A stretch of DNA of 64,000 bases. It comes from Cetorhinus maximus (Eukaryota). Shown here in pieces: positions 1,686 through 56,334 of the stretch. Under the pieces are notes generated by a model. It searched no databases. It saw only the letters and a program-made list of their open reading frames with translations, and was not told the DNA's origin. The translations under genes were made by a program, and so were the position numbers. The number at the start of each line of letters is the position of its first letter. Position 1 is the first letter of the stretch. The stretch lies in the NCBI RefSeq assembly GCF_964194155.1, contig NC_135904.1, positions 992,001-1,056,000 of the forward strand, read 5' to 3'.

Positions 1686-1978
1686 CCCGAGCCTGGCCCC
1701 GCCTCCCTCCCGCCCGAGCCTGGCCCCGCCTCCCTCCCTAGCCTGGCCCCGCCTCCCTCCCGCCCGAGCCTGGCCCCACCAGCCCGAGCCTGGCCCCGCC
1801 TCCCTCCCTCCCGTCCGAGCCTGGCCCCGCCTCCCTCCCTCCCGTCCGAGCCTGGCCCCGCCTCCCTCCCTCCCGCCCGCGCTTGGCCCCGCCTCCCTCC
1901 CGCCCGAGCCTGGCCCTGCCTCCCGTCCGAGCCTGGCCCCGCCTCCCTCCCTCCCGCCCGATCCTGGCCCCGCCCCCA
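1686..1978. repeat. GC-rich minisatellite, unit ~CCCGAGCCTGGCCCCGCCTCCCTC(CCTC)
   Basis: About 11-12 imperfect units of ~20-29 bp visible directly. Confidence 0.9.
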
Positions 1979-13194: not shown

Positions 13195-13575
13195 TGTGTT
13201 GCAGCCTTGGCTCGGTGAAAGCGCTCTCGCCACTGGGTCAGAAAGTTGTTGATTCAAGCCCGGATCGAGATCGTATGATCTTTGGTTGCAAGCACTGAGT
13301 CACTGTTACACTGTCAGAGATGCTGCTTTTTTGGTTAAACCAGGCCCCTGTCGGCTTTGTCAGGTGGACATAAGTTCCACGCATTTGAGCATCACCAACT
13401 CCTAAAACTGATGATCTGGTCATTTATTTCATTTTTGCCTGTGAGAGCTGCTTGTGTGCAAATTGGCTACCGTGTTTCCTATATTACAACAGTGACTACA
13501 CTTTAAAGGTTCTTCGTTGGCTGTAAAGTGCTTTGGATGTCATGAAAGTACCCCATATAAATATAAGTCTTTTTT
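13195..13575 (+). mobile_element. tRNA-derived Deu-domain SINE, near full length
   Basis: A-box-like TGGCTCGGTG and B-box-like GATTCAAGCC head, Deu-like core, 3' tail GGCTGTAAAGTGCTTTGG. Confidence 0.65.
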
Positions 13576-26600: not shown

Positions 26601-27144
26601 CATTTATTCCATTTAAAATTATTCATATGATGATCATTTCTGCTCCCAGGGCAGCACATTGTTCACGGGTCAAAGTATTCCCATCCACCAAAAGAGGACT
26701 GACCAAACCTTAACTCATTCCTCAGCCTAGAAGGGGAAAAAAAAAAATTAGAAGCTCACCGATATAACCAAGAGCATTATTGCACAGAAACAGCAATTGC
26801 CCCATCATGTATGCACCCTCCTCCAATGCCTCTCCACTATCGTCCAGCTGTGTGGGATTGCTCTCATCTGGTCCCATTCTTATCTCTCTAATTGTGCTCA
26901 CAAAATCACTTACAATAGCTTCTTTACCTGCTCCCGCACCATTATCTCTGCTTTCCTCCAAGGATATATCCTTGTACCCATCCTATTTCTCAGTGACATC
27001 ATCTGAAGGCACAGCATTAGCTTTCACCCAGTACTACCTCGACACAATGTCTCTCGACTACTTCCTCCTCCTTCTCCTTCAGGTACCATACCCTAAGAGG
27101 GCATTGGTGACCATGGACTTCCATTGCATTATCATAAGACTTTT

Positions 27145-28250
27145 TTATTCATTCATGGGATGTGGGCTTCGCTGGCTGGGCTAGCATTTATTGCCCATCC
27201 TTAGTTGCCCTTGAAAAGGTGATGGTGAGCTGCTGCTGCAGTCCGCGTGGTGTGGGTACATCCACAGTGTTAGGAAGAGCGTTCCAGGATTTTGACCTGG
27301 TGACAGTGAAGGACCGGCGATATATTTCCAAGTCAGGATGGTGAGTGACTTGGAGGGGAACTCCTAGGTGGTGGTTTTCCCATCTATCTGTTGCCTTTGT
27401 CCTTCTAGATGGTAGTGGTCGTGGGTTTGGAAGGTGCTGTCGAAGGAGCCTTGGTGAATTCCTGCAGTGCATCTTGTAGATGGTACACACTGTTGCTACT
27501 GTGCGTCGGTGGTGGAGGGAGTGAATATTTGTGGAAACTCTTTCGAGTTATCAACAGTCACAGATTGCAACTCTTTCGAGTACAATCACAGTTCTTGGTT
27601 TCTGGGAGTGGGACATGAACCCACAACCCTCTGATTCAAAGGCGAGGGTGCTATGAACTGAGCCACAGCTGACACCTCTGTGAATATTTGTGGAAACTCT
27701 TTCGAGTTATCAACAGTCACAGATTGCAACTCTTTCGAGTACAATCACAGTTCTTGGTTTCCGGGAGTGGGACATGAACCCATAACCCTCTGATTCAAAG
27801 GCGAGGGTGCTATGAACTGAGCCACAGCTGACACCTCTGTGAATATTTGTGGAAACTCTTTCGAGTTACCAACAGTCACAGATTGCAATTCTTTCGAGTA
27901 CAATCACATTTCTTGGTTTCCGGGAGTGGGACATGAACCCACAACCCTCTGATTCAAAGGCGAGGGTGCTATGAACTGAGCCACAGCTGACACCTCTGTG
28001 AATATTTGTGGAAACTCTTTCGAGTTACCAACAGTCACAGATTGCAATTCTTTCGAGTACAATCACATTTCTTGGTTTCCGGGAGTGGGACATGAACCCA
28101 CAACCCTCTGATTCAAAGGCGAGGGTGCTATGAACTGAGCCACAGCTGACACCTCTGTGAATATTTGTGGAAGGGGTGCCAATCAAGCGGGCTGCTTTAT
28201 CCTGGATGGTGTCAAGTTTCTTGTGTTGTGGGAGCTGCACTCATCCAGTC
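27145..28250 (-). mobile_element. LINE 3' portion interrupted by the 159-bp array
   Basis: LINE sequence runs to 27536 and resumes collinearly (GGGGTGCCAATCAAGCGGGCTGC) at 28173, as in the uninterrupted copy near 17730-17800. Confidence 0.85.
27521..28172 (-). repeat. Tandem array: 4 x 159-bp unit (143-bp tRNA-headed element + 16-bp target repeat)
   Basis: GTGAATATTTGTGGAA starts at 27521, 27680, 27839, 27998 and 28157; units nearly identical. Confidence 0.95.
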
Positions 28251-28251
28251 A

Positions 28252-28745
28252 AATAGGAGCAGATGTAGGTCATTCAGCCCATCAAGTCTGCTCTGCCATT
28301 CATTGAGGCCGTGGTTGATCTGATAATCCTTAACTCCACTTTTCTGCCTTTTCACCCTTGATTCCCTTACTGATTAAAAAATCTGTCTATCTCAGCCTTG
28401 AATATACTTAACAATCCAGCCTCTACAGCCCTCTGCAGTAGAGAAGTCCACAGATTCACTACCTTCTGAGAGGTGAAGTACCTCCTCATCTCTGTCTTAA
28501 GTGGGCGACTCCTTACTCTGAGATTATGCCCTCTGGTCCTGGACTCTCCCACAAGGGGAAACAACCTCTCAGCATCTACCCTGTCAAGCCCTGAAAGAAT
28601 CTTATATGTTTCAATAAAGTCACCTCTCATTCTTCTAAACTCCAAGGAGTACAGGCCCAACCTACTCAAACCTCTCCTCAAAAGAAAATCCCTCCATACC
28701 TGGGATCAACCTAGTGAACCTTCCCCGGACTGCCATCAATGTCAG
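28252..28745 (-). mobile_element. CR1 3' fragment
   Basis: RLGLYSLEFRRMRGDFIETYKILSGLDRVDAERLFPL; closely similar to 21280-21785. Confidence 0.9.
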
Positions 28746-54402: not shown

Positions 54403-56334
54403 ATGGAGCGGCCGCCACCATTTTATGCTGGTCTTCCCGAGCGGCGCCATGGGCCGCCCGTGCCGCCGGCTGCGGCTTTCACCCCGCAGAACCAAGGCCG
54501 AGACTCCTTTTATAACCCTGGGAGTAGGAGTGAGGAGAAGCCTGGTGCCGCGTTCCCTCTCCCCCGGCAGCATAGCTTCCCTGTCCCGGAGAGGGGCCTG
54601 GCCCAGAGCCGGGCTGCGGCCGGCGGAGACTGGGGGCCGCCTGCTCCCCTCACCGAGAGTTACCTTCAGCCCGGCCCGGGAGGGCCTGCTCCGGCTGTGG
54701 GCAGGGCGGAGCCGTTAGAAGAGCACAGCCAGCAGCAGCAGTGGGATCAGGGGCATCGAGAACACCCACAGGACCACCAGCGGAACTACTCTCACCCGCA
54801 GTGTCCATCCCAGCCATGGGGCCGTGCCCACCCCCCTCACCCACAGGGTCAGCAACACCGAGACCACCCCCCTCACCCACAGGGTCAGCAACACCGAGAC
54901 CACCCCCCTCACCCACAGGGTCAGCAACACCGAGACCACCCCCCTCACCCACAGGGTCAGCAACACGGAGATCATCATCCTCACCCACAGGGTCAACAAC
55001 ACCCAAACCACCGCCCTCACCCACAGGAGCAGAGTCAGCAACTTGCAAACCACCCTCCTTACCCATTGAGTCAGCAACATCGAGGCCACCCACAGAGTCA
55101 GCAACATCCAAACCACCCTCCTCACCCACAGGGCCATCAGCATCTGGACCATCTGTCTCTCTCACAAGGACATGAGCGCCCTCCTCACCCATGGAATCAT
55201 CACCACCAAGGTCAAACTCCCCACCTGCAGGGCTACCCTCCCCTCCCTCAGGGTCATGAGCAGAAGGAACGTCTGCCCCAAGTGCAGGGATATGAATGCA
55301 GGGACCAAGCTAGTTTCCCACAGGGATTTTCACATCCGGACCGGTCAGCTGATCAATATCAGGAATGCTATCCTCAGCAGGGACAGTCGTATCATCGTCC
55401 TCAACCTCCATATCAACACGAACACCCGGATTCTCAGCAACAGTATCCATTCCGGGAACGTTTACATCCTGAGCAATATCCACCCTTCTCTGAGAGAACT
55501 GGAGTTGCCAACAATGTACCACCTCACATCCACAGCATGTCTTCCCAGCCTCAGAACAGTTCCTGCCAAGACCAAAACTTGCTTCGTAGTGAAACTCCTA
55601 ACTTACCTGCTGGGTATGGACCTCAAAATTCTCAGTTAATAAATCACAGCATCCAGAATAATCAGCAGAACTTTCCAAATTCATCAGGGGAGATGCCACC
55701 TTGGGAAAATGATCACAGCATGCAGTATAACAATGAAAAGATGGGAACACCGTGGCCCAGTGTTGCTAATTTCCCACAAAACCTAAAAGACATCAGTGTG
55801 GAACAATTGCACAGAAATGACTTGATGACCAGGAAGTCATCATCAGACCAATTCTCTCATAATTTTAAATGTAATGAACCTCTAAAAGAGCAAGATGAGT
55901 TATGGCTTACAAGATTCTTGTCAAAACGTAGGGTGCAACCTTCCGAGATTAAAAAGCCCAAATCTTTCCCGTTAGTTAGTGAAGTAAAGGAATCGGTGCT
56001 TAGTGCTTGTAAACTTGTCACTGAGCTAACTGCCTTATGTCAGCAGTTAAGGCATAATGTGGAAAATGAAGTAGTCTGGACTGAATCCTATCTAAAAGCA
56101 ATTGAAATAAAGACTGCTTTACAGGAAAAACTAAAGACGTTAAACGACAGTGACTACCTCAGTGCTGTGAAAAAGAAACTGGAAAGAATCAAAAAGAAAA
56201 GAAGCAACATTCAACGGAAGAAGCAAGAGTGGCGGTTAGAAAAACAAGAGGAAGAGGCAAGGGCAGCAGAAAAAGAAGCAAAAATTGATGAATGGAGAAT
56301 GAAGTGTGTCCGAGAAGTTGAAGAAAAAAAGAGG
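54403..56334 (+). CDS. PDCD7: PDCD7 (U11/U12 snRNP 59K protein) exon 1, 644 codons
   Basis: Pro-rich N-terminus, then ...EAKIDEWRMKCVREVEEKKR|GTATTT, continuing in phase with exon 2; lies downstream of CLPX on the same strand as in human. Confidence 0.9.
54829..55200 (+). repeat. Coding 36-bp tandem repeat (HPPHPQGQQHRD)
   Basis: Three identical units at 54829-54936, two near-identical units to 55008, then degenerate copies. Confidence 0.95.

What the first reader, a model, noticed from the sequence alone, without database searches (positions are those of the whole stretch)
27521..28172. Array of four tRNA-headed mini-elements separated by five copies of a 16-bp target site
Seen: (GTGAATATTTGTGGAA + 143 bp) x4 + GTGAATATTTGTGGAA, period exactly 159, embedded in a LINE whose own sequence supplies the 16-mer. 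On the minus strand each 143-mer starts GGTGTCAGCTGTGGCTCAGTTCATAGCACCCTCGCCTTTGAATCAGAGGGTTGTGGGTTCATGTCCCACTCC, a tRNA-like head with A-box (TGGCTCAGT) and B-box (GGTTCATGTCC) motifs like the SINE head at 13200, but the Deu body is replaced by a short different tail. Units 1-2 and 3-4 share diagnostic variants (GTTATC vs GTTACC, GCAACT vs GCAATT, CACAGTT vs CACATTT), implying stepwise duplication. Inference: one insertion with a 16-bp TSD was amplified by TSD-mediated unequal exchange, or there was repeated same-site insertion or a multimeric RNA template. The result is a tandem cluster of potential Pol III promoters antisense to CLPX, with no T4 terminator visible in the unit.
Basis: partly seen in the sequence, partly recalled or inferred. 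Interest (0 to 1): 0.7.

Follow-up and report, generated by a model that had tools for sequence, protein, structure and literature searches.

The report
Stacked SINEs at one Tx1 target
This is a stack of four copies of a young, abundant short retrotransposon, each separated by the same 16 bases of the landing site; it was likely built by a Tx1-type copying enzyme pasting new copies into the same spot again and again, likely on the same side each time, so such stacks would record the order in which jumping elements were active.

Summary
The array is real: four 143-bp units and five 16-mers in a LINE remnant inside a CLPX intron. The unit is a young tRNA-headed SINE with over 9,000 copies. About 1,800 tail-spacer-head joints occur genome-wide; in sampled arrays most spacers are the local target-site duplication (TSD). 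Its likely partner is an intact Tx1 LINE (ORF2 50% identical to Xenopus Tx1) with the same 3' hairpin; the LINE prefers a Harbinger site and forms mixed stacks with the SINE. One insertion amplified by unequal exchange does not fit: the unit 3/4 haplotype occurs at four other loci. Neighbours keep an identical 5' junction in 54 of 72 pairs (chance 0.04), yet 36 of those differ at circulating variants. LINE stacks show old-5'/young-3' chimeras and grow at their 5' side. Best reading: repeated insertion at the regenerated 5' TSD, with the new cDNA joined through the resident copy. SINE-only arrays show no age gradient. TSD-spaced tandems are known (crocodilian SINEU-3, Drosophila); polarised chimeric growth did not turn up in my nine searches. 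The scan found this family before on other DNA.

The parts
27521..27536 (-). 16-bp target-site copy, 3'-most on the element strand
27537..27679 (-). SINE unit 1: family majority type plus one CpG change; likely the first insertion (inferred)
27680..27695 (-). 16-bp target-site copy (spacer)
27696..27838 (-). SINE unit 2: family majority type plus one change
27839..27854 (-). 16-bp target-site copy (spacer)
27855..27997 (-). SINE unit 3: rare three-variant haplotype (6 exact copies in the genome)
27998..28013 (-). 16-bp target-site copy (spacer)
28014..28156 (-). SINE unit 4: identical to unit 3; likely the latest addition (inferred)
28135..28142 (-). A-box-like motif (shown for unit 4)
   Evidence: consensus recalled
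28089..28097 (-). B-box-like motif with one departure from consensus (unit 4)
   Evidence: consensus recalled
28047..28058 (-). internal copy of the terminal hairpin (unit 4)
28014..28025 (-). terminal 4-bp-stem hairpin shared with the Tx1 LINE 3' end (unit 4)
28157..28172 (-). 16-bp target-site copy, 5'-most; keeps the native upstream context and is the predicted site of re-nicking
   Evidence: role inferred
27141..28259 (-). host LINE 3' remnant that supplies the 16-mer (clade not determined)
27214..27217 (-). first T4 run after the array, about 300 nt past its end; possible Pol III stop

Best explanation
The array is four copies of a young tRNA-headed SINE stacked at one site, likely by repeated target-primed reverse transcription by a Tx1 LINE's enzyme that would re-nick the regenerated 5'-most target copy and join each new cDNA through the resident copy. 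Shown: (1) the unit is a dispersed family; (2) it ends in the same hairpin as an intact Tx1 LINE and shares its sites and stacks; (3) neighbours mostly keep the same 5' junction while carrying different family haplotypes; (4) LINE stacks contain old-5'/young-3' chimeras, long duplications of resident units, and younger units on the 5' side. Inferred: Pol III transcripts read a few bases past the hairpin and prime at a matching nick; the cDNA pairs with the top strand of the resident unit, so the TSD plus the resident's 5' junction is copied again. For this locus: unit 1 first, then unit 2, then a rare-lineage RNA gave unit 3. Unit 4 is a copy of unit 3, by an early switch or by DNA-level duplication.
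For: Family size: 9,292 exact heads, 9,475 exact tails, 1,800 joints with control 0. Spacer is the local TSD in 96 of 112 adjacent full-length pairs. Junction identical in 54 of 72 pairs against 0.043 between 61 loci; 36 of the 54 differ at a circulating non-CpG variant; 24 share an unusual junction, 19 of these differ. Five L173 SINEs of several subfamilies share three non-target bases at the junction. The focal junction type is 1 of 62 loci, and the same host-LINE site gave other junctions at L200 and L260. Subfamily predicts the first bases after the unit (35 of 40 for one subfamily). Partner: ORF2 with EN and RT, 50% identity over 100% to Xenopus Tx1 149 kDa, stem kept while the loop varies, mixed stacks. 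Chimeras: L181 p=6e-4, L182 p=9e-7, L183 p=2e-6. Position-ordered samples: a SINE lies directly 3' of an old LINE tail in 0 of 26 loci against 7 of 20 for young tails (p=0.0014), and directly 5' of old units in 5 of 26. Identity to the young LINE falls 5' to 3' in 12 of 14 stretches (p=0.013).
Against: SINE-only arrays show no age polarity (14 against 17 of 40 position-ordered arrays, p=0.72). Shared variants between SINE neighbours show no 5' bias (p=0.53), so the switch point is not seen in SINEs. Neighbours share variants 5-10 times more than random pairs and whole blocks repeat (L163, L059, L173), so DNA-level duplication likely contributes. Of 12 LINE pairs, 4 had no shared sites, 1 showed no clustering and 2 had one shared site with p above 0.05; those arrays were picked for holding a young copy. 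18 of 72 SINE pairs have different junctions, and pairs within an array are not independent. SINE-LINE likeness beyond the last 12 or so bases is not significant (31 of 500 shuffles as high). No transcription or enzyme activity was tested.
Confidence: 0.62

Rival explanations
1. One-event reloading: after one nick pair, the reverse transcriptase copies an RNA, jumps to the target overhang, copies the TSD, then loads the next RNA, several times in one sitting.
For: Explains constant TSD length, mixed haplotypes and no SINE age gradient. RNA-to-RNA jumps occur: T-tailed units joined straight to a head and the L033 flank inside L023.
Against: Does not explain shared non-target bases or shared truncation points across subfamilies, nor LINE stacks running from 81% to 99% identity to the young LINE (L170).
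Confidence: 0.16
2. Independent double insertions with fresh junctions, then unequal exchange between the resulting dimers (the McGurk and Barbash route).
For: Units 3 and 4 are identical and of a type with 6 copies among about 9,500. Blocks repeat in long arrays. Described for Drosophila (PMC5932611, passages).
Against: Fresh junctions should match about 4% of the time, not 75%. Exchange alone does not put young 3' ends behind old 5' junctions on the 5' side.
Confidence: 0.15
3. One insertion, amplified by unequal exchange between the two 16-bp TSDs, with later mutation.
For: Constant period, constant junction, units 3 and 4 identical.
Against: The three-variant haplotype lies at four other loci, and the focal joint was not found elsewhere. 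Only 3 of 62 same-junction neighbours are identical.
Confidence: 0.03
4. A multimeric or circular RNA was inserted once (read-through multimer or retrozyme-like rolling copy).
For: No terminator in the unit. A dimer of L190 was retrocopied to L193 with its spacer.
Against: The spacer here is the local target, in frame with the host LINE, and occurs with the tail only here. No Rfam ribozyme match.
Confidence: 0.02
5. Assembly artefact.
For: Unitigs cannot span the array, and the runs may be the assembly's own sample.
Against: Units differ in patterned ways. The inner joint is a unitig in 4 of 4 runs; in X1 its depth is 180 against 59 for a flank unitig (depth is a weak measure). 1,800 such joints genome-wide.
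Confidence: 0.02

Closest known systems
SINEU-3 / Tx1-Mar of crocodilians (Kojima 2015, PMC4494074; passages and part 3 of 5 read)
   Same: SINE mobilised by a Tx1 LINE that prefers a DNA transposon; tandem copies sandwiching a TSD, ascribed to sequential insertion. Tx1-9_AMi targets Harbinger elements.
   Different: Head is tRNA-type, not U1/U2. Family is 90-100% alike, not about 89%. Most SINE copies lie outside the Harbinger site (2 of 26 position-ordered loci inside). The parts read do not describe inherited junctions or growth polarity.
Xenopus Tx1L (YTX2 149 kDa protein; inserts into Tx1D according to PMC4494074)
   Same: ORF2 50% identical over its full length; two ORFs; target in a DNA transposon.
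   Different: Target is a Harbinger-type element (DDE_Tnp_4, weak Myb hit). Head-to-tail stacks of full-length copies and a dependent SINE.
Tandem TEs by double insertion, including R1 arrays (McGurk and Barbash 2018, PMC5932611; passages)
   Same: Target site kept in the tandem joint; substrate for later unequal exchange.
   Different: There, distinct 5' truncations mark independent insertions. Here neighbours mostly share the truncation point or junction while differing in 3' subfamily.
cDNA-to-target pairing before second-strand cleavage in R2 (PMC6895275; passages)
   Same: Offers a step (cDNA pairs with the top strand, TSD made by synthesis) that would give the inherited junction.
   Different: Shown in vitro for an RLE element; the paper leaves APE LINEs open.
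Tandem Alu insertions and L1/endogenous-L1 chimeras in cell assays (recalled, not read; not held)
   Same: Re-use of a target site; cDNA annealing to a resident copy.
   Different: Recalled as occasional events, whereas about a fifth of tails here sit at a stacked joint (1,800 against 9,475; patterns differ).

Membership tests
tRNA-derived SINE (SINE2) | Head with A- and B-box | tested here: inconclusive
   A-box-like motif present, B-box-like motif with one departure; no ARAGORN or Rfam tRNA call
tRNA-derived SINE (SINE2) | Short, dispersed, many copies, non-coding | tested here: met
   143 bp, over 9,000 exact heads and tails
tRNA-derived SINE (SINE2) | TSDs and 5' truncation typical of target-primed insertion | tested here: met
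   TSD in 23 of 28 full-length monomers, 11-17 bp; truncated copies
tRNA-derived SINE (SINE2) | Pol III transcription | not testable with these tools
   No suitable RNA run laid; a read-through retrocopy (L190 to L193) is indirect support
Tx1-mobilised SINE | Partner LINE is Tx1 clade and intact | tested here: met
   by similarity, no tree built
Tx1-mobilised SINE | Shared 3' end | tested here: met
   terminal hairpin only; wider tail likeness not significant
Tx1-mobilised SINE | Shared target and co-occurrence | tested here: met
   both at the Harbinger site and in mixed stacks
Tx1-mobilised SINE | Mobilisation in trans shown by assay | not testable with these tools
   needs a cell or in vitro assay
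SINEU | U1- or U2-derived head | tested here: not met
   no Rfam snRNA match
Deu-SINE (as at about 13200) | Deu central domain and L2-type tail | tested here: not met
Retrozyme / Penelope-type tandem | Hammerhead ribozyme and repeats without local TSD spacers | tested here: not met
   no Rfam match; spacers are local TSDs
Catalogued Repbase/Dfam SINE | Match to a named consensus | not testable with these tools
   no repeat library available

The most novel reading that the evidence does not exclude
This Tx1 machinery writes polarised stacks: each new LINE or SINE is added at the 5'-most regenerated target copy and inherits the resident's 5' junction through cDNA pairing. Hundreds of loci are then time-ordered records of subfamily activity, CRISPR-like in layout, and 5'-truncated RNAs can regain a promoter head from the resident copy.
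Probability: 0.5. Interest if true: 0.68.

Novelty: new variant of a known kind. Interest (0 to 1): 0.5.

Why it matters
How a LINE joins the 5' end of its cDNA and makes the second strand is an open question (PMC6895275, passages). These stacks give hundreds of natural events in which the old and new parts can be told apart, with an intact Tx1 enzyme available for assay. They also show a route from retroposition to tandem repeats that needs no initial unequal exchange, and an order of insertion that can date subfamilies without a clock. The single locus in the CLPX intron has no shown function.

Tried and rejected
ARAGORN and Rfam gave no tRNA or ribozyme. Age polarity in SINE arrays: an apparent gradient in the loci vanished in position-ordered arrays. 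A 5' bias of shared variants in SINE pairs was absent. One search used one reference copy and was redone against eight young copies. The second foreign spacer (L003) has no source in the assembly. The L163 foreign spacer equals the TSD of L162, but the unit variants do not match, so it is not counted as a proven retrocopy. L215 is a nested insertion and was dropped from the polarity counts (13 of 15 before, 12 of 14 after). L190 as the direct source of units 3/4 was not accepted, since its first unit lacks the first 7 bases and L191 is full-length. Pfam could not class the 43-aa host LINE piece. PMC13343379 has no Tx1, tandem or Harbinger mention (term search only). Paper searches listed no description of this SINE or of polarised chimeric stacking; the library lacks most subscription papers and no supplements were read.

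Full report
Observation. The array is as described: period 159, 4.1 copies, five 16-mers found only here, four 143-bp units on the minus strand. Units 3 and 4 are identical; units 1 and 2 are the family majority type with one change each. One copy of the 16-mer continues the host LINE reading frame on both sides, so it is target sequence. The array lies antisense in a CLPX intron. The inner joint is a unitig in 4 of 4 runs of one sample, which speaks against an assembly artefact but may not be independent.

The unit is a young dispersed SINE. The own-genome search returned copies at 95-100% on many contigs (40 of 244 candidates scored). Exact patterns count 9,292 heads, 9,475 tails and 1,800 tail-spacer-head joints. 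Arrays were 15 of 28 loci in the similarity-ranked set and 5 of 26 in a position-ordered set. TSDs are 10-17 bp and mostly begin with the same three bases. Relative to the host LINE, SINE word depth is roughly 300-650 times higher in organism A than in B and C (depth is a weak measure), which hints at a lineage-specific burst. The host is likely a cartilaginous fish (inferred; best-identity named hit is a stingray protein).

Partner. A recurring spacer proved to be a target site in a Harbinger-type element. There the SINE shares stacks with a LINE whose 3' end has the same 4-bp stem; the stem is kept while the loop varies among LINE ends. Full-length copies of 7.8 kb have intact ORF1 and ORF2 and stand head to tail with TSD spacers. 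ORF2 has endonuclease and RT domains and is 50% identical over its length to the Xenopus Tx1 149 kDa protein. Likeness of the tails beyond the hairpin is not significant, so the pairing rests on hairpin, target and co-occurrence.

How the stacks form. Across 111 loci and 290 units, 96 of 112 adjacent full-length pairs have the local TSD as spacer, and only 3 of 62 same-junction pairs are identical. With a stricter junction definition, 54 of 72 pairs share TSD length, extra bases and start, against 0.043 between loci; 36 of the 54 differ at a circulating variant (heuristic parsing, pairs not independent). Pure DNA duplication predicts near-identical units, and fully independent insertion predicts new junctions. 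Neither fits most pairs.

LINE stacks show the likely reason. In neighbours with the same truncation point, sites shared by both units cluster at the 5' end and the upstream unit then turns young: clear in L181, L182 and L183, weak in L180 and L173, not shown in the other 7 of 12 pairs (I chose these 12 pairs from 9 arrays picked for holding a young copy). L185, L174 and L184 show a new LINE preceded by a duplicate of several resident units, and L045 shows a TSD that runs 17 bases into the resident head. L170 runs from 99% to 81% in the 5' to 3' direction. To remove the selection, I took the first 30 genomic matches of an old and of a young LINE tail. A SINE lies directly 3' of the old tail in 0 of 26 loci and of the young tail in 7 of 20 (p=0.0014); it lies directly 5' of old units in 5 of 26, a side visible only for short units. 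Identity falls 5' to 3' in 12 of 14 stretches after dropping a nested case (values and merges entered by hand).

Results against. SINE-only arrays show no age gradient and no 5' bias of shared variants. Neighbours are more alike than random pairs, and blocks repeat, so DNA-level duplication or long duplications add units too. RNA-to-RNA jumps and read-through retrocopies occur, which keeps one-event reloading alive.

This locus. All four junctions are of a type seen in 1 of 62 loci, while the same host-LINE site gave different junctions at L200 and L260. The unit 3/4 haplotype has 6 exact copies, four at other loci, all followed by the same four bases as here. The focal joint is found nowhere else. 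So at least two RNA lineages contributed, and the order unit 1 to unit 4 is inferred. Whether unit 4 arose by an early cDNA switch or by DNA duplication cannot be told.

Known context. Kojima 2015 (PMC4494074; passages and part 3 of 5) reports Tx1-mobilised SINEU-3 tandems sandwiching a TSD and a Tx1 family that targets Harbinger. McGurk and Barbash 2018 (PMC5932611; passages) describe double insertion. PMC6895275 (passages) gives a cDNA-target pairing step for R2. Tandem Alus and L1 chimeras are recalled only. Nine searches (listings and abstract starts) gave no account of inherited junctions with 5' growth; supplements were not read and Repbase was not available. Earlier notes of this scan describe the same SINE/Tx1 pair on other DNA; I saw them after reaching my reading and they are not independent support.

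Verdict. A real feature and a new variant of a known kind. The SINE/Tx1 stacking is well supported; the polarised, chimeric growth is good for LINE units and inferred for SINE units. Interest 0.5.

Noticed in passing
L132:1401-1521 (minus): A full-length 5S rRNA copy (Rfam 96 bits) is joined directly to the 5' end of a three-unit SINE array; likely a template switch to 5S RNA, a possible seed for a 5S-headed SINE.
   Followed up: partly
G000:C2:163812773-163866349: Eight young LINE tails at 7-9 kb spacing: a head-to-tail stack of about 60 kb, likely of full-length Tx1 copies.
   Followed up: no
L176:1766-3300: The 5' region of the full-length Tx1 LINE holds a long low-complexity trinucleotide-like repeat of variable length.
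   Followed up: no
L016, L024, L061, L135, L161, L165, L260: A tail variant ending in a T run is joined straight to the next head without a TSD; likely jumps between terminated Pol III RNAs.
   Followed up: partly
L033 to L023 (86 kb apart); L048 flank in L175; L190 to L193: Flank or spacer sequence of one locus reappears inside arrays elsewhere (3' transduction or multimer retrocopy), marking source loci.
   Followed up: partly
L095, L098 (Harbinger-type host): The preferred Tx1 target appears to lie at the stop codon of an ORF of the Harbinger-type element (frame 5927-6349 in L098), possibly the end of its Myb gene.
   Followed up: no
L049, L056, L146, L210, L220: A shorter, older-looking SINE subfamily with one hairpin and an A-rich insert; the two-hairpin form may derive from it.
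   Followed up: no
window 1686-1974 and 54828-55118: GC-rich minisatellites (periods 27-31 and 36).
   Followed up: no
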